Source: a virus (taxonomy: Duplodnaviria > Heunggongvirae > Uroviricota > Caudoviricetes). Taken from it: 42,229 nt of DNA. Both the position numbers and the translations under genes were made by a program. This document shows, piece by piece, positions 1,034 through 14,872 of the stretch. The notes under the pieces are model-generated. The model searched no databases. It saw nothing but the letters and a program-made list of their open reading frames with translations, and was not told where the DNA came from. Location: the IMG/VR virus record IMGVR_UViG_2718217897_000004; one strand, written 5' to 3'. The number at the start of each line of letters is the position of its first letter. The first letter of the stretch is position 1.

Positions 1034-2059
1034 TTACTTGGAATATTTTCTTGGAATATTTTCAGGTAACGGGACATCAAGTGTTGGTGAAACTTTAACC
1101 TTCCTGTCATAGATTAGCACTTGCCCTTCGGTTTTGTGACCAGAGAAAAGTTGCTTATCCCGGCTGCTTCCTTCATAGTCTGAAATTCCTTTCGCCTTCA
1201 GATCATGAAAGGTGAAGTCGGTTAAAATACCTGAAATTTTTCCAGCACGATTTCTTGCTTCTACCCACATTTCGTTAAAGCCTTTGTACATATATCGGTT
1301 GCCGTATTGATTGCTGATCACATAGGCAGATTTTGGTAACTGTTTTGCTTTTTCGATCGCTGCCTGTAATCGTGGACTCCATGCTTTTATCTGTTTTTTT
1401 CCGGTTTTCCCTTGCTGGATGAATATCCCGTCGTTTCCAATCTGTTCCCATTTCAGCGATAACACATCGGAAACCCTCGCTGCACACAGATAGGCAATTT
1501 CCATTGCGATAAAAACAGGAAGAGGTGCAACGCTTAATACTTCCTGGTATTCTTTGTCGGTTACATATCGTTCGCGGTTTTTGGCCTTGAATTTACTTAC
1601 ACCTGCACATGGGTTAGCCTTCACGTACCCTCGCTCATACCCCCAACTGTAAACACGGGACATACTGCTTTTTTCATGGTTGGCTTGCGTTTTACTCTGC
1701 TCCCCTCTTTTGTCCATGTATCGACGGATGTGTTCTGGTTTTATGGAATCCGCTGGTACCTTACCGAATACGGCAAGCAACTTTTTTTGATGTTGCAGAT
1801 AATCTTTTTGTGTTCTTGGACTAAGGTCACTGTAATAGGCGCTGGCGAGGAATTTTTCCCACAAGCGACCGAATGTCATTGCACGATCGCGATTATTTAC
1901 AGTTTCCTCATACTTTTTCCATAAAGCAGCTAAACCATCCTTGATGGCGGTTAGTGTGACAGATTCTCTGGATGTTGGTTTCCATACATAACTATATTTA
2001 TTTGGGTATACATTTGGAGGTAATTTTTCGTGTTCAGGATTTTTCCTTCGTCTTCCCAT
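1034..2059 (-). CDS. int: Phage integrase, tyrosine site-specific recombinase
   Basis: 341-aa ORF reading toward the tRNA; typical position and size; stop/start overlap with the upstream excisionase ORF. Confidence 0.88.
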   Translation of the reverse strand: MGRRRKNPEHEKLPPNVYPNKYSYVWKPTSRESVTLTAIKDGLAALWKKYEETVNNRDRAMTFGRLWEKFLASAYYSDLSPRTQKDYLQHQKKLLAVFGKVPADSIKPEHIRRYMDKRGEQSKTQANHEKSSMSRVYSWGYERGYVKANPCAGVSKFKAKNRERYVTDKEYQEVLSVAPLPVFIAMEIAYLCAARVSDVLSLKWEQIGNDGIFIQQGKTGKKQIKAWSPRLQAAIEKAKQLPKSAYVISNQYGNRYMYKGFNEMWVEARNRAGKISGILTDFTFHDLKAKGISDYEGSSRDKQLFSGHKTEGQVLIYDRKVKVSPTLDVPLPENIPRKYSK

Positions 2060-2262
2060 CAGATCGCACCAAAATTCGGCTCTACCTCGCGTGGTGGTAA
2101 AGTTTTATTGCAGGTAAATAGATCCCGGCTGACAATCGGTTTGCCACTACGATTGGTATAGAACGGAAGCCCGTTTTCCATTAACCATTTTCGCTGGTGG
2201 CTTGCATATTTGCAGCCCGTTAATATTAGCAATTCATCTTCGGTTAAAAATAAGCTGCTCAT
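2059..2262 (-). CDS. xis: Excisionase-like small DNA-binding protein
   Basis: 67-aa ORF immediately upstream of int with TGATG overlap; small basic protein at the xis position. Confidence 0.6.
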   Translation of the reverse strand: MSSLFLTEDELLILTGCKYASHQRKWLMENGLPFYTNRSGKPIVSRDLFTCNKTLPPREVEPNFGAI

Positions 2263-2320: not shown

Positions 2321-4747
2321 TTAAAAATCAGCCTGACTCGGGATCAGTTTTTGCCAGATAGCTGAAACGTATTTTGCCTGGTAACGAGCGTCATCAAGTG
2401 CATTATGGCGCTCACCTTCGAATGGGATAGCAGTTCTGGCATCGAAGTCTATGGCTTTCCCCAGCTCAACGATTGTGCGTACATCGCGATCGTTGCAGTA
2501 GCGCCACGGGCAGGGGATACCCTGTCGTTCGTATGAACGGCGTAAAATCACGTTGTCGAAGTTGGCCCCATTACCCCAGACCTGAACAAAAAATTCACCG
2601 GAGTTTTCGTCGATAAATTCCCGCAATTGCAGTAGTGCATCATCTAACGGGATTTCATCGGTCATAATGGCAGACTGCGCCTCACGTGATTGCTTCAGCC
2701 ACCATTTAATGACGTCACGATCAATGACTCCGCCAGCAGTATCCAGATCGATGGTCTTGCTAAATTCCGGTCCCATATCTCCGGTTTGTGGATCGAAAAA
2801 TATTGCGCCTATTGAGATAATCGGGGCATCGGGATTTTTTCCCATGGTTTCAAGGTCGATCATCAGATGAATCCCCGCTCTGCTGGTGGATGTGAGTTTA
2901 TGATGACCATTCACCTTAATTAAGGGATCTGTCGCCTCGCCAGTTTTATTATCGCTGGCGTGATGCTGATTGCCGCCAGGGTTCTCCTTGTGTGGATGTT
3001 CAGCGCCTTCCATTTCCTCCGGAACATTTTCCTGAACTTCAACCTGATTCTCTTCATCGAATGTTTCCTGGTATGTTGCGTCGCCCATCACCGCGCCACA
3101 ATCAGGGCAGTTGCCGCCACCCCTCTGACCGCAGGCGGTGCAGACTTTTTCCGGTTCCTGTTGCGCTACTGGTTCGGATTGTTTCGTTTCTGGCTCGTTT
3201 TGTAACGCATTTGGGCTGTTTTGTTCCGCTTTTTGGTCGTTCCGTTCCGATTCATGCTGGTTCTGGTTCACAGAATCGCGAGTCTGGATCCCCTTGACCC
3301 ATTTCGGATCATTAGGGTCGCTAATCCCCTCAACAAATTCACCACGCGATACAGCAAGTAACTTATCGGCGTCAGGCTGGCTGATATTGGCTGCCTGCAT
3401 AATTTTGTTTACTTCGTCAGCGGTGACTTTTACTTGGTTAGCGGAACTCACCTGCGACTGAACGTTCTGGCAATGTTCAGTTGTATCCGGTTCCATTGTT
3501 TCAGTTGTTGCCTGTTCACCTGCCATTGCGTCAGATGGTTGTGGTTTTTCTTCCTCTGTTTCACGTTCAGTAACCACCTCGCGGTTAATTTCTTCCAGGA
3601 TATCTTTTTCCGGCGTATGCCGGGCAGCTGTGAGAGTTTCCTTGCTGGGGTTCTCGTGATCAGTTTCCGTCAAATAGGCGTTGATATACCCCTGAAGGCG
3701 TCCCGGGTAGTGATAAAATTCAGGGTGTGCGCTTCGGATAAGTGCAAAAATAGCGGCGCGGGAATAGTCCAGAATACCCGGGGTTGCACGAAGTGCTGCG
3801 GACCATTCTTTGAACGGACTTTCTTTTTTCAGGACTACTTCTTTTGCGCGACGATAAACGCTGCCCGGAATTTCATAAATATTAAAATCCATCGGAAGTG
3901 TGGCTGCTGCAATCTCCACATCCAGTGTGTCGAGGGTGTGTACTAAATTCGGATTGCGATCGGTTTTGTTCCCACCGCCAGCATTAGCACCGGAAGCCGT
4001 GCGGGTGATGCGTGAAACACGATTTCCTTTCATCCACTCTTTTGTCAGCAGACCCCGATCAATGTAGTCAGCGTCCAGGTATGCTTCGAAAAAAGCAGTT
4101 ATTAGTCCCAGGTCTGAATTACCAGGATTAGGGAAAACTTTGTCAGTGTCACGAACCAGTTTGTGGAGGTCGCGAATCTCCAGCGAGTCGAGCAGACTGG
4201 TTTTATGCGAAATAGCCAGAGCAGTAACAGCCGGTAGTTCTTCAGCCCGTGCAATGTGTAATGCCTGGAGTTCGTCGCGTGAAACGTGCGTTACTGGTTT
4301 TTCGCTGCCGTGTTGAGCAAGCCAACGAATGGGCAGTTCCTGACCGGAGACAGGCAGAAGCATGCTCTCCTCAATCTCAGTCATGTCTTCGCCGTTGATG
4401 TTGGTATTGTCAGTGCTGGCTGGTTTGTCCTGAACAGAGGGGGAAGGGCCGATAAATGTCATTGTGATGCCATCTTTCCCGCCTTTTTCATAGCGGTTGC
4501 AGAATTCAGTATCAAACACGCCTTCTGGCGGAAGGTCGTCAACAACGGGCAAATTGACGCGGACGGGTTTTTTAAAGTCGTCTTCATCATAATCGTTGTC
4601 ATCCATTGCGGTAATGCAGCGGGAGATTGCAACAGATAATTTTTTTGCTGTAGTCCAGTAAAAACCACCTTTAATTCCCAGGCGTTTTCTTACTTTGTCA
4701 TTTTTTGCTTCGCAATATAGTGCAAATTCTTCTTTATCAGTGCTCAT
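2321..4747 (-). CDS. Phage exonuclease: large N-terminal region with Cys4 zinc ribbon fused to a C-terminal DnaQ-like (DEDDh) 3'-5' exonuclease domain (of the kind annotated exodeoxyribonuclease VIII in prophages)
   Basis: 808-aa ORF; C-terminal MIDLETMG...WGNGANFDN...HNALDDARY motifs fit exonuclease motifs I-III; CTACGQRGGGNCPDCG zinc ribbon mid-protein; occupies the exo/recombination slot of the leftward operon. Confidence 0.75.
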   Translation of the reverse strand: MSTDKEEFALYCEAKNDKVRKRLGIKGGFYWTTAKKLSVAISRCITAMDDNDYDEDDFKKPVRVNLPVVDDLPPEGVFDTEFCNRYEKGGKDGITMTFIGPSPSVQDKPASTDNTNINGEDMTEIEESMLLPVSGQELPIRWLAQHGSEKPVTHVSRDELQALHIARAEELPAVTALAISHKTSLLDSLEIRDLHKLVRDTDKVFPNPGNSDLGLITAFFEAYLDADYIDRGLLTKEWMKGNRVSRITRTASGANAGGGNKTDRNPNLVHTLDTLDVEIAAATLPMDFNIYEIPGSVYRRAKEVVLKKESPFKEWSAALRATPGILDYSRAAIFALIRSAHPEFYHYPGRLQGYINAYLTETDHENPSKETLTAARHTPEKDILEEINREVVTERETEEEKPQPSDAMAGEQATTETMEPDTTEHCQNVQSQVSSANQVKVTADEVNKIMQAANISQPDADKLLAVSRGEFVEGISDPNDPKWVKGIQTRDSVNQNQHESERNDQKAEQNSPNALQNEPETKQSEPVAQQEPEKVCTACGQRGGGNCPDCGAVMGDATYQETFDEENQVEVQENVPEEMEGAEHPHKENPGGNQHHASDNKTGEATDPLIKVNGHHKLTSTSRAGIHLMIDLETMGKNPDAPIISIGAIFFDPQTGDMGPEFSKTIDLDTAGGVIDRDVIKWWLKQSREAQSAIMTDEIPLDDALLQLREFIDENSGEFFVQVWGNGANFDNVILRRSYERQGIPCPWRYCNDRDVRTIVELGKAIDFDARTAIPFEGERHNALDDARYQAKYVSAIWQKLIPSQADF

Positions 4748-4840: not shown

Positions 4841-5032
4841 TTAAAATTCTGCCGGGATTTCGTTATTATCCTGGTGAATAACTTTATCGACCGGATAACA
4901 GCTGCCTGGAATTTTCTGTTCGGTTGCTGCTGCCATACATTCCTGCATTGTTCTGTGAACACTGACTGCAATATCAACTGGCTCTCCGGAAACAAGAAAA
5001 ACCGTCAGAATAAGTGCAAATACTGGATTCAT
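4841..5032 (-). CDS. Small membrane/secreted protein at the ydfD position (YdfD-like)
   Basis: 63-aa frame from internal ATG MNPVFALILTVFLVSG... with hydrophobic N-terminus; AAGGA SD about 8 nt upstream; 4-nt overlap with dicB stop. Equivalence to YdfD is from position and length only. Confidence 0.45.
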   Translation of the reverse strand: MNPVFALILTVFLVSGEPVDIAVSVHRTMQECMAAATEQKIPGSCYPVDKVIHQDNNEIPAEF

Positions 5033-5217
5033 TGTGCACATCCTTTTGGCATCAGACGTAAACGGGCCAGCATTGAAACAATGCATACTTTATTTAATAA
5101 CTCCCGTTCGTGTTTTCTTTTGTTAATGGCATCTTCAGTAAATACAGGATTACTGATAGTGACACCAATTTCAAAACAACCTTCAGACGTATTAACGTTT
5201 GGTAATAACGTTTTCAT
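5029..5217 (-). CDS. dicB: Cell-division inhibitor DicB
   Basis: 62-aa frame MKTLLPNVNTSEGCFEIGVTISNPVFTEDAINKRK...SMLARLRLMPKGCAQ matches recalled DicB nearly residue for residue. Confidence 0.85.
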   Translation of the reverse strand: MKTLLPNVNTSEGCFEIGVTISNPVFTEDAINKRKHERELLNKVCIVSMLARLRLMPKGCAQ

Positions 5218-6074: not shown

Positions 6075-6431
6075 TTACTCGAGAGGAAATTGGTTATGAA
6101 TACAATCAAGTTTTCTTGCCCAGAATGTGGTGGCGAAGTCTTTGACACATCCTTTAAGCCGCAGGGCTCTGACAGTTTCGCGGGAGCCATCTGCAAAAAT
6201 TGTGGTCACCTTGTAACTGAAGATGAGTCCTCGCAGTTCGATGACGAAATCGTTGACAATATCTTCGGTGCACTCACCAGAGACTTTCTGAAATAAAGAC
6301 GCATACCGCTTAGTTACCGCTCTGATAACTCTTACCTGTCCGGCAATGGCGCTGATGTCAATATAAAGCGCCATTGCTGCTTCTTTGCCGATCCCGTGAT
6401 GCCTTCCATTCTGATGTTTGACTTCGCCCAC
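6075..6431 (-). CDS. Hypothetical first gene of the leftward (dicB) operon; alternative to the overlapping plus-strand zinc-ribbon ORF
   Basis: 118-aa frame with GTG start and GAGGA SD; occupies the ydfA/ydfB position but fully overlaps a zinc-ribbon ORF on the other strand, so at most one is likely real over the shared span. Confidence 0.25.
   Translation of the reverse strand: MGEVKHQNGRHHGIGKEAAMALYIDISAIAGQVRVIRAVTKRYASLFQKVSGECTEDIVNDFVIELRGLIFSYKVTTIFADGSRETVRALRLKGCVKDFATTFWARKLDCIHNQFPLE
6096..6296 (+). CDS. Small acidic zinc-ribbon protein (CPECGG...CKNCGH), antisense to the leftward early operon
   Basis: 66-aa frame from ATG 6096 with GAGAGG SD about 9 nt upstream; two CxxC pairs about 25 aa apart; acidic C-terminus. 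Confidence 0.4.
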   Translation: MNTIKFSCPECGGEVFDTSFKPQGSDSFAGAICKNCGHLVTEDESSQFDDEIVDNIFGALTRDFLK

Positions 6432-6601: not shown

Positions 6602-7009
6602 TTATCTTTTGTTTGTTCGTTGACGGGCTTTTAATAACTCTTCAAAGAGTTTGTTGAAATTTTTTACTCGGGCGCGCATCTCGGTGAGCTGAGCATCCTG
6701 TTCTGATTCAGGCAGTGCATTAAAAAGCTCAAGGAGCTCATGTTCTTTGGGGGATAGAGCAACTGGCTCCTCAATAGGTGGTGATGGCTGCTTGTCTTCA
6801 TCGCCAAATAGAATCCATGTTGGCGAGCACTGCAGTACTTTGCTGAGGGCAAAAAGATTCTTTCCTGTAGGTTCGCTATCATCCCGCTCCCATTGTGAAA
6901 CTGATACGTGAGAAATTTTCAGGGCTTTAGCAAGAGACCTTTGGGTGTATTTGAGGTTTTTTCGGCGATATCTAATGCGTTCGCCAATGGTTAAATTTTT
7001 TGTATCCAT
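6602..7009 (-). CDS. dicA: Repressor DicA (CI-type HTH repressor of the immunity region)
   Basis: 135-aa protein MDTKNLTIGERIRYRRKNLKYTQRSLAKALKISHVSVSQWER... matches recalled DicA in length and sequence. Confidence 0.9.
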   Translation of the reverse strand: MDTKNLTIGERIRYRRKNLKYTQRSLAKALKISHVSVSQWERDDSEPTGKNLFALSKVLQCSPTWILFGDEDKQPSPPIEEPVALSPKEHELLELFNALPESEQDAQLTEMRARVKNFNKLFEELLKARQRTNKR

Positions 7010-13450: not shown

Positions 13451-14506
13451 GTGCGGGTATTACTTCGACCTGTTCTGGTACCGGAACTCGGGCTGGTGGT
13501 CCTTAAGCCCGGTCGTGAATCCATGCCGGTATTTCACAATCCTCGAGTGCTGGTGGAGCCGGAACCGAAAAGCATGCGCGGTCTGCCGTCCGGAGTCGTT
13601 CCTGCTGTTCGCCAGCCGCTGGCTGAGGATAAATCATTACTGCCATTTTTCAGCGATGAGCGGGTGATTCGTGCTGCTGGTGGTGCTGGTGCATTGTCTG
13701 ACTGGCTGTTGCGCCATATTAAATCCTGCCAGTGGCCACACGGCGATTATCATCACAGCGAAACCGTTATTCACCGATATGGTACCGGCGCAATGGTGTT
13801 GTGCTGGCACTGCGACAACCAGCTGCGTGACCAGACATCCGAATCACTCGGGCAACTTGCTCATCAAAACCTGTCAGCATGGATGATTGACGTCATCGGT
13901 CACGCAATAAGCGGTACGCAGGAGCGGGAGTTATCTCTGGCTGAATTATCCTGGTGGGCGGTCCGCAATCAGGTGGCGGACGCGCTACCGGAAGCGGTAT
14001 TACGTCGTTCGCTGGGGTTGCGTGCGGAAAAAATCCGCTCAATGTACCGTGAAAGCGACATCGTACCGGGAGAGCAGACCGCCACCAGCATACTGAAGCA
14101 GCGCACAAAAAATCTTGCGCCGCTGCCTCACGCCCACCAGCAAAACCCGCCACAGGAAGAGACGGTGGTCAGCATTGCCGTTGATCCGGAGTCACCGGCT
14201 CAGTATCTCCAGCGCCAGAAACCACAACGGGAAGAGATGCCTGTATACACGCGCTGGGTAAAAACGCAGAAATGCATGACGTGCGGTAATCAGGCAGATG
14301 ATCCGCATCACATCATTGGTCATGGACTGGGAGGGATGGGAACAAAGGCTGATGATTTGTTTGTTATTCCGCTGTGCCGTAAATGTCATAACGAACTGCA
14401 CGCCGGGGTAAAAGATTTTGAAGAAAAACACGGCAGCCAGCTGTTGTTGCTGATTCGTTTTTTAATGCACGCGAGAAATTCGGGTGTCCTGAAGTGGAAA
14501 GCATGA
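13451..14506 (+). CDS. DUF968-type protein with C-terminal HNH-like zinc-finger nuclease motif (YdfU-like)
   Basis: 351 aa, GTG start with GGAGG SD; C-terminal CMTCGNQADDPHHIIGHGLGG...CRKCHNELH motif. Confidence 0.7.
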   Translation: MRVLLRPVLVPELGLVVLKPGRESMPVFHNPRVLVEPEPKSMRGLPSGVVPAVRQPLAEDKSLLPFFSDERVIRAAGGAGALSDWLLRHIKSCQWPHGDYHHSETVIHRYGTGAMVLCWHCDNQLRDQTSESLGQLAHQNLSAWMIDVIGHAISGTQERELSLAELSWWAVRNQVADALPEAVLRRSLGLRAEKIRSMYRESDIVPGEQTATSILKQRTKNLAPLPHAHQQNPPQEETVVSIAVDPESPAQYLQRQKPQREEMPVYTRWVKTQKCMTCGNQADDPHHIIGHGLGGMGTKADDLFVIPLCRKCHNELHAGVKDFEEKHGSQLLLLIRFLMHARNSGVLKWKA

Positions 14507-14872
14507 ATGACTGAACGCATAGAATTTGTTTTGCCTTACCCGCCGACGGTGAATACCTACTGGCGACGTCATGGCAATACGTATTTCATCTCGGAGGCCG
14601 GAAAGCGTTATCGCCATGATGTGGCGCTAATTGTTCGCCAGCAGCGGTTGAAATTAAACCTGTCCGGAAGGCTGGCGATAAAGATTATTGCAGAGCCACC
14701 GGATAAGCGCCGTCGTGACCTGGACAATATCCTGAAAGCACCACTGGATGCGCTGACGCATGCCGGACTACTCATAGACGACGAGCAGTTTGATGAAATC
14801 AATATTGTGCGCGGTCAGCTCGTTCCTGGTGGGCGGCTGGGGATAAAAATCACAGAACTGGAGTGCGCATGA
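14507..14872 (+). CDS. rusA: Holliday-junction resolvase RusA
   Basis: 121-aa protein with ...TVNTYWRRHGN...DKRRRDLDNILKAPLDALTHAG... matching the RusA family; start overlaps upstream stop. Confidence 0.88.
   Translation: MTERIEFVLPYPPTVNTYWRRHGNTYFISEAGKRYRHDVALIVRQQRLKLNLSGRLAIKIIAEPPDKRRRDLDNILKAPLDALTHAGLLIDDEQFDEINIVRGQLVPGGRLGIKITELECA

What the first reader, a model, noticed from the sequence alone, without database searches (positions are those of the whole stretch)
2321..4747. 808-aa exonuclease fusion with a large uncharacterised N-terminal region
Only the last about 200 aa carry a recognisable DnaQ-like DEDDh domain. The preceding about 600 aa contain an acidic low-complexity linker and a Cys4 zinc ribbon but nothing I can assign. 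No separate Bet/RecT-like annealase or Gam-like gene is visible in the operon, so partner functions may be folded into this protein or absent.
Basis: partly seen in the sequence, partly recalled or inferred. Interest (0 to 1): 0.4.

Follow-up and report, generated by a model that had tools for sequence, protein, structure and literature searches.

The report
RecE scaffold with swapped exonuclease domain
This prophage gene joins the first ~600 residues of the classic RecE recombination nuclease to a different, opposite-polarity (3'-to-5', DnaQ/DexA-type) exonuclease; the protein is very common in E. coli, appears unstudied, and occurs without the RecT annealing partner that accompanies true RecE.

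Summary
The 808-aa ORF at 2321-4747 (-) is real, and its C-terminus (aa 627-798) is an intact DEDDh exonuclease of the Rv2179c/T4-DexA family. The N-terminal region is not unassignable. Residues 58-610 are 58% identical to residues 50-591 of E. coli K-12 RecE, Cys4 motif included, and Pfam PF06630 matches. Homology ends where RecE's PD-(D/E)XK nuclease begins, so this is RecE's N-terminal module with the nuclease swapped. RecE's own N-terminal region still has no known function or fold, and my model found no structural relatives.

No annealase is present in the window. Across 80 loci from other Enterobacteriaceae species, PD-(D/E)XK versions had RecT immediately downstream in 43 of 44 loci. 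DEDDh versions had none in 23 of 23 loci. The N-terminal module therefore cannot be a built-in annealase; the partner is absent.

Both halves are under purifying selection. DNA of this DEDDh domain occurs in 74% of complete E. coli genomes; DNA of the K-12 RecE nuclease domain occurs in 32%. K-12's ydfE is a truncated sister allele.

Most likely function: a stand-alone 3'-to-5' exonuclease of the prophage early-left operon, not a two-component recombinase. Its biological role is not established. Verdict: a common, annotated but uncharacterised variant of a known kind, of moderate interest.

The parts
2321..4747 (-). Complete 808-aa gene: RecE N-terminal module plus a DEDDh exonuclease
   Evidence: ORF list. 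A gene of the same length, 99.9% identical, is annotated 'exonuclease' in strain XDL. dN/dS is 0.17-0.25 among E. coli alleles.
4577..4747 (-). aa 1-57: N-terminal allele not shared with K-12 RecE; part of folded domain D1 (aa 1-100)
   Evidence: The BLASTP alignment with RecE starts at aa 58. The same 1-57 allele occurs in both nuclease types among representative proteins. AF2 pLDDT is about 90 or more for aa 1-100.
2918..4576 (-). aa 58-610: region homologous to RecE aa 50-591
   Evidence: 58% identity over 563 alignment columns. PF06630 matches aa 57-189. NF007259 matches model positions 1-603. DNA homology to K-12 recE ends at gene nucleotide 1829 (H27).
3557..4360 (-). aa 130-397: two helical domains (D2 130-245, D3 260-397), the conserved core of the family
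   Evidence: AF2 pLDDT is about 85-97. Segments N2 and N3 are shared by nearly all representatives. dN/dS is 0.12-0.17. No PDB or BFVD structural match.
3956..4000 (-). aa 250-264: conserved glycine-rich loop (T-x-SGANAGGGN-x-TDR), the only basic patch in the N-terminal region
   Evidence: T250 is invariant; A256, G258, T262, D263 and R264 are nearly invariant (90% or more of sequences) in alignment A3. Residues 250-258 have low pLDDT. The net charge of aa 246-262 is +3.
3098..3142 (-). aa 536-550: Cys4 zinc-ribbon motif (C536, C539, C547, C550)
   Evidence: Read from the sequence. Conserved in K-12 RecE. Short strands with pLDDT about 70-76. Present only in the closer relatives (segment N5).
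2870..3077 (-). aa 557-626: acidic disordered linker containing the RecE/DEDDh junction (aa 610/611, about nt 2915-2920)
   Evidence: pLDDT is below 50 for aa 556-610. Net charge is -9. The alignment with RecE ends at aa 610. dN/dS for aa 531-626, which also contains the zinc ribbon, is 0.7-0.8 in the two comparisons with the window allele and 2.15 between L089 and L090, where dS is only 0.044.
2354..2869 (-). aa 627-798: DEDDh 3'-5' exonuclease domain (Rv2179c/DexA family)
   Evidence: PF16473 E 3e-66. Catalytic residues D631, E633, D731, H781 and D786 are present. Foldseek best hit is T4 DexA 8kel, E 1e-10. dN/dS is 0.06-0.07.
4841..5032 (-). Upstream gene: ydfD orthologue (DUF1482, 63 aa), co-oriented
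   Evidence: PF07358. 89% identity to the K-12 Qin lysis protein YdfD. Same order in other E. coli loci.
5029..5217 (-). dicB (cell-division inhibitor), in the same leftward operon
   Evidence: PF05358 E 2e-39. PGAP annotation in the near-identical locus L002.
2059..2262 (-). Downstream excisionase-like gene (DUF4224)
   Evidence: PF13986. Annotated as a DUF4224 domain-containing protein in L002. It occupies the position that recT takes in RecE-type loci.
1034..2059 (-). Tyrosine integrase, next to the tRNA-Ser attachment site (892-981)
   Evidence: PF00589. tRNA-Ser. An integrase follows the nuclease in all 15 DEDDh loci scanned.

Best explanation
The gene encodes a modular prophage nuclease of the RecE lineage. 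RecE's PD-(D/E)XK 5'-to-3' exonuclease domain has been replaced by a DnaQ-like DEDDh 3'-to-5' exonuclease of the Rv2179c/T4-DexA family. RecE's N-terminal ~550 residues are kept: three folded acidic domains, disordered acidic linkers and a Cys4 ribbon.

Shown here: the homology and the junction at aa 610; intact catalytic residues; purifying selection on both halves; the position as the last gene of the leftward early operon (dicB-ydfD-exo-xis-int); and the strict absence of an annealase wherever the DEDDh domain is present.

Inferred: the protein is made with the early-left transcript after induction or infection. It acts as a stand-alone 3'-end-directed exonuclease, most likely on DNA, because its nearest solved relative is a DNA exonuclease and its scaffold comes from a DNA-end enzyme. 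A 3'-to-5' enzyme destroys rather than creates the 3' tails an annealase needs. It therefore cannot work as half of an exonuclease/annealase (SynExo) recombinase, which fits the missing recT.

The N-terminal module serves either nuclease type and does not depend on RecT. It is therefore probably a targeting, oligomerisation or protein-interaction scaffold and not an annealase or a generic DNA-binding domain. The biological purpose (trimming phage or host DNA ends, attacking foreign DNA, or counter-defence) is not determined.
For: Homology: aa 58-610 align with RecE aa 50-591 at 58% identity. PF06630 and PF16473 both match. NF007259 matches only model positions 1-603 of 877. The DEDDh residues are conserved, and the fold matches DexA best, then RNase T, DnaQ domains and Orn.

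Context: among representative proteins at 50% identity, the RecE-N scaffold is joined to either a DEDDh or a PD-(D/E)XK domain in many separate clusters. In 80 species-level loci, the PD-(D/E)XK type has RecT overlapping its stop codon in 43 of 44 loci, and the DEDDh type has no RecT in 23 of 23 loci. A Pfam scan of 116 neighbouring ORFs from 15 DEDDh loci showed integrase, YdaT, DnaT and lambda-P families; no annealase family was among the 25 most frequent. The window itself has no annealase.

Selection: dN/dS is 0.06-0.07 for the DEDDh domain and 0.09-0.17 for the folded N-terminal domains.

Conserved cassette: dicB-ydfD-exo-xis-int recurs at different attachment sites.

Charge: the protein has net charge -53, and the folded N-terminal domains have pI 5.0-5.7.
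Against: No biochemical or genetic data exist for this protein in the literature I could search. Substrate (DNA or RNA), polarity and timing of expression are all inferred. The Pfam family is named after an exoribonuclease. The promoter and terminator scan was no better than chance, so co-transcription with the early-left operon rests on gene order and spacing only. The annealase search relied on a RecT HMM, low-sensitivity phmmer searches with Bet and Erf, and Pfam counts limited to the 25 commonest families. A rare or novel annealase in some loci is therefore not excluded. An acidic N-terminal region does not prove a protein-interaction role.
Confidence: 0.6

Rival explanations
1. It is a prophage-encoded defence or superinfection-exclusion nuclease. 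Like the DexA homologue EcD ('HREX'), it would degrade the DNA of incoming phages, for example modified T-even DNA, and protect the lysogen.
For: An E. coli DexA homologue (EcD) was reported to degrade 5hmC-containing T4 DNA and to protect cells (PMC12153337). The window protein's nuclease domain is in the same Pfam family as DexA, and DexA is its best structural match. The DEDDh domain is present in 74% of complete E. coli genomes, often in several copies, as expected for a selectable accessory function. The gene lies at the prophage edge next to int, where accessory genes are often found.
Against: DexA's 5hmC-recognition residues W152 and D169 align to C751 and A765 here and vary across the family. 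D90, whose loss defines the EcD state, is retained as D703. EcD is a different protein: its cloning primers encode MIDTET... at the start and ...TIPETYD at the end. PADLOC gives only a weak generic DEDDh hit. The gene sits inside the repressed early-left operon, with no promoter of its own above chance. In Rac, the equivalent operon is silent in lysogens (my own knowledge).
Confidence: 0.17
2. It is an RNA-directed 3'-to-5' exoribonuclease, like Rv2179c, RNase T or oligoribonuclease. It would act on host or phage RNAs or on short oligonucleotide or cyclic-nucleotide signals during lytic growth.
For: Pfam names the family '3'-5' exoribonuclease Rv2179c-like', and RefSeq often names the protein '3'-5' exoribonuclease'. 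RNase T and Orn are strong structural matches (E 1e-8 to 1e-7).
Against: The closest solved relative, by sequence and by fold, is the DNA exonuclease DexA. RNase T also degrades DNA: its listed structures are DNA complexes. The domain is fused to the scaffold of a DNA-end enzyme and takes the place of a DNA exonuclease.
Confidence: 0.12
3. It is still a recombination exonuclease, a functional analogue of RecE. It would cooperate with host functions (RecA/RecFOR, SSB) or with an unrecognised phage annealase, possibly one hidden in the N-terminal region.
For: It occupies the recE position and keeps the RecE N-terminal module. That module enhances linear-linear recombination in full-length RecE (Fu et al. 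2012, as cited in PMC11611040). The phage keeps RusA and a DUF968/YdfU-like gene in its nin region.
Against: 3'-to-5' polarity removes the 3' tails needed for annealing or RecA loading (established knowledge of SynExo systems). RecT is absent in 23 of 23 DEDDh loci and present in 43 of 44 PD-(D/E)XK loci. The N-terminal module is the same in proteins that do have RecT, so it is unlikely to be an annealase. No annealase family was detected in it by Pfam or PHROGs.
Confidence: 0.08
4. It is a non-functional relic: a deletion fused the 5' part of recE to a downstream exonuclease gene, and the product has no role.
For: Prophage left arms are mosaic and often decayed. K-12 ydfE is an IS2-truncated allele, and an O157 copy is annotated as partial.
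Against: The reading frame is intact in more than 1000 complete E. coli genomes at 80% or more coverage. The architecture recurs in many clusters at 50% identity and in 23 species-level loci. Catalytic residues are conserved. dN/dS is far below 1 in both halves.
Confidence: 0.03

Closest known systems
RecE (exodeoxyribonuclease VIII) of the E. coli K-12 Rac prophage
   Same: Residues 58-610 are homologous to RecE 50-591 at 58% identity, including the Cys4 motif and acidic linkers. Both are the large nuclease gene of the leftward early operon of a lambdoid or Rac-like prophage, upstream of xis and int.
   Different: The PD-(D/E)XK 5'-to-3' nuclease domain (PDB 3H4R) is absent and replaced by a DEDDh domain. 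The protein scores below the NCBIfam RecE cut-off (920 versus 1269 bits). No recT follows it. The first 57 residues are a different allele.
T4 DexA (exonuclease A; PDB 8KEL/8KEN) and its E. coli homologue EcD ('HREX', PMC12153337)
   Same: Same Pfam family, PF16473. Best sequence and structure match in the PDB. All five DEDDh catalytic residues align.
   Different: DexA and EcD appear to be small stand-alone proteins: DexA is 227 aa, and EcD's length is not stated in the text I read. Here the domain is the C-terminus of an 808-aa protein. DexA's 5hmC-recognition residues W152 and D169 are not conserved (C751, A765). Identity is only about 20-25%.
Rv2179c, RNase T, oligoribonuclease and DnaQ-epsilon DEDDh exonucleases
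   Same: Same fold and catalytic motif. Foldseek E values of 1e-8 to 1e-7 to RNase T, DnaQ domains and Orn.
   Different: Those are cellular housekeeping enzymes without a RecE-type N-terminal module. Substrate preference cannot be transferred from them.
Two-component phage recombinases (SynExo): lambda Exo/Bet and RecE/RecT
   Same: Same genomic slot and the same RecE lineage of the scaffold.
   Different: The protein lacks both defining parts: a 5'-to-3' PD-(D/E)XK exonuclease and an adjacent annealase.
YdfE (Qin cryptic prophage, E. coli K-12)
   Same: Same cassette, dicB-ydfD-exonuclease-int. The window's ydfD is 89% identical to K-12 ydfD.
   Different: K-12 ydfE is truncated by IS2 after 256 codons. 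It carries another N-terminal allele with no BLASTP similarity to this one, resembling the P0163/P0176-type DEDDh proteins.

Membership tests
RecE / exodeoxyribonuclease VIII (NCBIfam NF007259 equivalog) | Whole-protein score above the curated cut-off (1269 bits) | tested here: not met
   920 bits; only model positions 1-603 of 877 are matched. K-12 RecE scores 1830 bits.
RecE / exodeoxyribonuclease VIII | C-terminal PD-(D/E)XK 5'-to-3' nuclease domain (as in PDB 3H4R) | tested here: not met
   The BLASTP alignment with RecE ends at aa 610 of this protein and aa 591 of RecE. No PDB hit to 3H4R with this protein. phmmer with the RecE C-terminus finds it only in the other class of loci.
RecE / exodeoxyribonuclease VIII | RecE N-terminal region (Pfam PF06630 Exonuc_VIII) | tested here: met
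   PF06630 at 125.7 bits against a cut-off of 25. 58% identity to RecE 50-591.
RecE / exodeoxyribonuclease VIII | Adjacent recT annealase gene | tested here: not met
   No RecT in the window. Absent in 23 of 23 DEDDh-type loci and present in 43 of 44 PD-(D/E)XK-type loci.
DEDDh 3'-5' exonucleases, Rv2179c/DexA family (Pfam PF16473) | Pfam gathering score and full-length domain match | tested here: met
   222.9 bits against a cut-off of 27; profile positions 2-177 of 177.
DEDDh 3'-5' exonucleases, Rv2179c/DexA family | Five catalytic residues D-E-D-H-D | tested here: met
   D631, E633, D731, H781 and D786 align with DexA D7, E9, D119, H186 and D191.
DEDDh 3'-5' exonucleases, Rv2179c/DexA family | DnaQ-like fold | tested here: met
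   The AF2 model (pTM 0.77) matches DexA 8kel at E 1e-10 and TM 0.68, then RNase T and DnaQ domains.
DEDDh 3'-5' exonucleases, Rv2179c/DexA family | 3'-to-5' exonuclease activity and substrate (DNA or RNA) | not testable with these tools
   Needs an enzyme assay.
HREX (DexA/EcD 5hmC-recognising exonuclease defence; PMC12153337) | 5hmC-recognition residues equivalent to DexA W152 and D169 | tested here: not met
   They align to C751 and A765, and the positions vary across the family. Caveat: this is a MAFFT alignment at about 25% identity, so register errors are possible.
HREX (DexA/EcD) | Loss of the tetramer residue (DexA D90), as in EcD | tested here: not met
   The aligned residue is D703, so the aspartate is retained.
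HREX (DexA/EcD) | Protection against T4 or modified-DNA phages | not testable with these tools
   Needs plaque or growth assays.
SynExo two-component recombinase (exonuclease plus annealase) | 5'-to-3' PD-(D/E)XK exonuclease with a co-encoded single-strand annealing protein | tested here: not met
   The nuclease is a DEDDh type. No RecT, Bet, Erf or Rad52-like gene was found in the window or in related DEDDh loci.
Known anti-phage defence systems (PADLOC-DB v2) | Match to a defence-system protein model | tested here: not met
   Only a weak generic cas-associated DEDDh model matched (E 1.3e-4). Of the four neighbouring ORFs scanned, three had no match; the small + strand ORF 6090-6296 had two weak matches (E about 2e-3).

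The most novel reading that the evidence does not exclude
The RecE N-terminal region would be an autonomous module that works with any nuclease: an orphan fold, strongly acidic, with a conserved glycine-rich loop. It would perform a conserved task unrelated to annealase-coupled recombination, such as end tethering, host-factor capture or DNA mimicry against host nucleases. Prophages would exchange the effector domain attached to it (PD-(D/E)XK, DEDDh and at least two further unannotated C-termini). Under this reading the DEDDh version, present in about three quarters of E. coli genomes, is an uncharacterised nuclease system with a role in phage-phage or phage-host conflict rather than in recombination.
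Probability: 0.3. Interest if true: 0.6.

Novelty: new variant of a known kind. Interest (0 to 1): 0.4.

Why it matters
RecE/RecT is a workhorse of recombineering, yet the 600-residue N-terminal region of RecE has no known function. This protein shows that the region is kept under purifying selection when the nuclease chemistry and polarity are changed and RecT is lost. Its job therefore does not depend on RecT or on 5'-to-3' resection, which narrows the hypotheses and gives a natural test case.

The DEDDh version is more prevalent in E. coli than this measure of canonical K-12-type RecE (74% versus 32% of complete genomes, by near-identity DNA search with each nuclease domain), and I found no functional study of it. 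Many databases and phage records call it 'exodeoxyribonuclease VIII'. That name implies a polarity and a partner it does not have. The strict either/or pattern (PD-(D/E)XK with RecT, DEDDh without) is a simple rule for annotating prophage recombination capacity.

Tried and rejected
1. The first homologue search with aa 1-610 returned only near-identical E. coli sequences and gave no diversity. I used the 50%-identity representative library instead.

2. The first paper search matched 'receptor' through word-start matching and was useless.

3. The first attempt at search for related loci failed because the alignment was too divergent. A trimmed alignment of the conserved block worked.

4. phmmer with K-12 RecT missed the divergent RecT genes next to RecE-type genes. 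Pfam confirmed them, and a custom HMM then found them all. phmmer with lambda Bet, Exo and Gam and with P22 Erf found nothing anywhere. This is a low-sensitivity negative.

5. Foldseek searches of the N-terminal model against the PDB and BFVD gave no hit with E below 0.1. A profile search of PDB sequences matched nothing in the N-terminal homology region: the only significant hit was the RecE nuclease, through RecE-type C-termini in the alignment, and a weak TATA-box-binding-protein hit (E 0.026) lies in the low-complexity linker region.

6. Pairwise dN/dS against orthologues from other genera was saturated (pS about 0.75) and uninformative. I used closer E. coli alleles instead.

7. The promoter and terminator scan was no better than shuffled sequence.

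8. I considered that EcD from the HREX paper might be this protein. I rejected this because its cloning primers encode different termini.

9. I expected K-12 YdfE to align with the N-terminus. It does not, because it is another N-terminal allele.

10. Searches for literature on PF06630, PF16473, Rv2179c with prophage, and ydfE found no functional study.
Full report
**1. The observation**

The window is a lambdoid, Qin/Rac-like prophage integrated at tRNA-Ser(cga) (892-981) next to mtfA. Its leftward early arm reads, on the minus strand:
- a cI-like repressor (6602-7009);
- two small ORFs of unknown function (phrog_21318 and phrog_1744);
- dicB;
- a ydfD orthologue (DUF1482);
- the 808-aa ORF (2321-4747);
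- a DUF4224 excisionase-like gene;
- a tyrosine integrase.

A 99.9% identical gene of the same length is annotated 'exonuclease' in E. coli strain XDL, with the same neighbours.

- A DEDDh domain occupies aa 627-798 (PF16473, E 3e-66).
- Three stretches are acidic and predicted disordered (398-442, 485-530, 557-626).
- There is a CxxC-x7-CxxC motif (C536, C539, C547, C550).

**2. What the N-terminal 600 residues are**

They are not unassignable.
- Pfam PF06630 (Exonuc_VIII) matches aa 57-189 (E 3e-36).
- BLASTP against K-12 RecE, taken from the Rac prophage of a K-12 derivative, aligns aa 58-610 with RecE aa 50-591. Identity is 58%, and several blocks are almost identical, including the Cys4 motif.
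- The NCBIfam RecE equivalog model matches positions 1-603 of 877. The score of 920 bits is below the 1269-bit cut-off because the last third is missing.
- At the DNA level, homology to K-12 recE stops at gene nucleotide 1829, which is codon 610 (H27).

The similarity therefore ends where the RecE nuclease domain begins, and from there a DEDDh domain follows. The crystallised RecE domain starts at about residue 606 (my recollection). A 2023 review gives 564-866 (PMC11611040).

The protein is the RecE N-terminal module with a swapped nuclease. [quoted passage not shown] The assignment is thus to a known family but not to a known function.

**3. Structure**

An AlphaFold2 model of aa 1-610, built from 32 diverse sequences, has a mean pLDDT of 71. 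It shows:
- a small alpha/beta domain (aa 1-100, pLDDT about 90);
- two helical domains (130-245 and 260-397, pLDDT about 85-97);
- a small helical unit (443-484);
- the zinc ribbon (531-555, pLDDT about 70-76);
- disordered segments between these.

A highly conserved glycine-rich loop, T-x-SGANAGGGN-x-TDR (aa 250-264), lies between the helical domains. Foldseek found nothing with E below 0.1 in the PDB or in BFVD. A sequence profile matched nothing in the N-terminal homology region of any PDB chain. All folded N-terminal domains are acidic (pI 5.0-5.7), and the whole protein has a net charge of -53. This does not look like a generic DNA-binding scaffold.

The C-terminal model (aa 601-808, pTM 0.77) matches T4 DexA best (8kel, E 1e-10, TM 0.68), followed by RNase T, DnaQ domains and oligoribonuclease. 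DexA belongs to the same Pfam family. The five catalytic residues are present: D631, E633, D731, H781 and D786.

**4. Is the annealase really missing, and is that meaningful?**

In the window, PHROGs and Pfam scans of the early-region ORFs on both arms found these functions:
- repressor and cro/cII-like regulators;
- O-like and P-like replication proteins;
- a Ren-like protein;
- a DUF968/HNH-like protein;
- RusA, Q and lysis genes.

No RecT, Bet, Erf or Sak family member appeared. No ORF of suitable size remains unscanned between 11.9 and 13.5 kb.

To test whether this is a rule, I searched 1.84 billion representative proteins with aa 1-610. Only 263 clusters matched, so the family is narrow. 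Among the long representatives, the scaffold is joined either to a DEDDh domain or to a RecE-type PD-(D/E)XK domain, each in many clusters.

I then fetched 80 loci from one-genome-per-species contigs. Nearly all come from Enterobacterales genera, mostly Enterobacteriaceae, such as Citrobacter, Enterobacter, Klebsiella, Kluyvera, Atlantibacter, Leclercia and Erwinia. The ORF immediately downstream of PD-(D/E)XK-type genes is a RecT-family protein (PF03837, E 1e-33 to 1e-42). An HMM seeded from these ORFs gave the following for loci with at least 1.5 kb of downstream sequence:

| Nuclease type | RecT present | RecT absent |
|---|---|---|
| PD-(D/E)XK | 43 | 1 |
| DEDDh | 0 | 23 |

In DEDDh loci the gene is followed by a ~100-aa ORF and an integrase, as in the window.

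A Pfam scan of 116 ORFs of at least 140 aa from 15 DEDDh loci listed integrase, YdaT, DnaT, lambda P and HTH families. No annealase family was among the 25 commonest, and the families not shown each matched at most one ORF.

The swap of nuclease type therefore goes together with loss of the annealase. The same N-terminal module occurs with and without RecT, so it cannot be the place where an annealase function was 'folded in'.

**5. Is it functional?**

Among E. coli alleles 89-90% identical in DNA, taken from prophages at a different attachment site but with the same dicB-ydfD-exo-xis-int cassette, dN/dS values were:
- 0.06-0.07 for the DEDDh domain;
- 0.09-0.17 for the folded N-terminal domains;
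- 0.2-0.8 for the linker regions in the comparisons with the window allele.

Both halves are under purifying selection, and the linkers evolve fast. The gene is not a decaying relic, although truncated copies exist (K-12 ydfE; an O157 copy).

**6. Prevalence**

By near-identity DNA search (at least 80% of each query covered):
- the full gene occurs in 1071 of 5426 complete E. coli genomes;
- the DEDDh-domain DNA occurs in 4040 of 5426 genomes, up to 7 copies each;
- the K-12 RecE nuclease-domain DNA occurs in 1729 of 5426 genomes.

RefSeq names the protein 'exonuclease', '3'-5' exonuclease' or '3'-5' exoribonuclease'. Several phage records and JGI call it 'exodeoxyribonuclease VIII'. That name is misleading, because the defining nuclease domain and partner are absent.

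**7. How it most likely works**

Shown:
- an intact DEDDh active site;
- the RecE-type scaffold;
- the position at the distal end of the leftward early operon;
- no annealase.

Inferred: the protein is made with the early-left transcript on induction or infection. It acts alone as a 3'-to-5' exonuclease, most probably on DNA 3' ends. Such an enzyme removes the 3' tails that annealases and RecA use, so it cannot be the resection half of a SynExo pair. This explains why recT is dispensable and lost. The N-terminal module, which is indifferent to nuclease chemistry, polarity and RecT, is more likely a targeting, oligomerisation or protein-interaction device. The biological purpose remains open.

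Rivals:
- **Defence nuclease.** A recent report describes an E. coli DexA homologue (EcD) that degrades 5hmC DNA and protects against T4 (PMC12153337). That makes this the most attractive rival. However, EcD is a different protein. DexA's 5hmC-recognition residues are not conserved here, and the tetramer aspartate is retained. PADLOC has no matching system. The gene lies in an operon expected to be repressed in lysogens.
- **Exoribonuclease.** This role cannot be excluded from sequence.
- **Recombination with a host or hidden annealase.** The polarity and the co-variation with RecT argue against it.
- **Non-functional relic.** The conservation data argue against it.

**8. Comparison with what is known, and novelty**

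The protein works like a DexA or RNase T-type DEDDh exonuclease attached to RecE's N-terminal module.
- It is a member of Pfam PF06630 and PF16473.
- It is not a member of the RecE equivalog family: three of four defining features were tested and not met.
- It is not a SynExo recombinase.
- It does not meet the sequence features proposed for HREX.

The architecture is catalogued in databases and is extremely common, so the protein is not new as a sequence. I found no paper describing its function, the domain swap, or the either/or relation with RecT. I rate it a new variant of a known kind, of moderate interest. Its main value is as a natural experiment on the long-unexplained RecE N-terminal region and as a correction to widespread 'exonuclease VIII' annotation.

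Noticed in passing
L079:8230-10209, L080:481-2427, L077:8359-9966; proteins P0198, P0204: The RecE-N scaffold also occurs with C-termini that are neither DEDDh nor RecE-type PD-(D/E)XK. One is phrog_26058 (633 aa, unknown function). Another is phrog_2489 with a C-terminal phrog_7838 'exonuclease'. Neither C-terminus has a Pfam or PDB sequence match, and no RecT lies next to them. They may carry further nuclease or effector types on the same scaffold.
   Followed up: partly
protein P0137 (752-aa DEDDh-type representative): Two of the five catalytic positions are substituted: E to K at the DexA E9 position and D to A at the D119 position. This is probably a catalytically dead variant that keeps the scaffold.
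   Followed up: no
window 4841-5217 (-); L091:12955-14191: The window's left operon is the intact counterpart of the K-12 Qin cryptic prophage: dicB, then ydfD (89% identical to the K-12 lysis protein YdfD), then the exonuclease. K-12 'ydfE' is an IS2-truncated sister allele of this gene family with a different N-terminal allele.
   Followed up: yes
window 3956-4000 (-), aa 250-264: A glycine-rich loop, T-x-SGANAGGGN-x-TDR, is highly conserved (one position invariant, five nearly invariant). It is the only basic patch of the N-terminal region and is predicted with low confidence. A subset of family members replaces it with an unrelated segment (...RRSEKPT-x-RTINYEIA...). It may be a functional site of the RecE N-terminal module.
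   Followed up: partly
L004 (contig JAGZPX010000007.1, labelled Veillonella parvula MAG): It carries a 95%-identical copy of this E. coli prophage gene. This is almost certainly mis-binned Enterobacteriaceae DNA in the MAG.
   Followed up: no
window 6090-6296 (+), inside and antisense to ORF 6075-6431 (-): A 68-aa ORF carries two CxxC pairs (zinc-ribbon-like) and a weak match to phrog_4852. It overlaps the phrog_21318 ORF on the opposite strand. Which of the two is expressed is unclear.
   Followed up: no
window 13451-14872 (+): The nin-like region keeps a DUF968/YdfU-like protein (phrog_96) and a RusA Holliday-junction resolvase directly upstream of Q. The phage therefore retains late recombination-intermediate processing despite having no annealase.
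   Followed up: no
E. coli genome searches: The 3' 46% of the gene (about aa 439-808: small helical unit, zinc ribbon, DEDDh domain) is found at 92-95% identity in most E. coli genomes, joined to different 5' parts. This points to a recombination hotspot inside the acidic linker around aa 400-440.
   Followed up: partly
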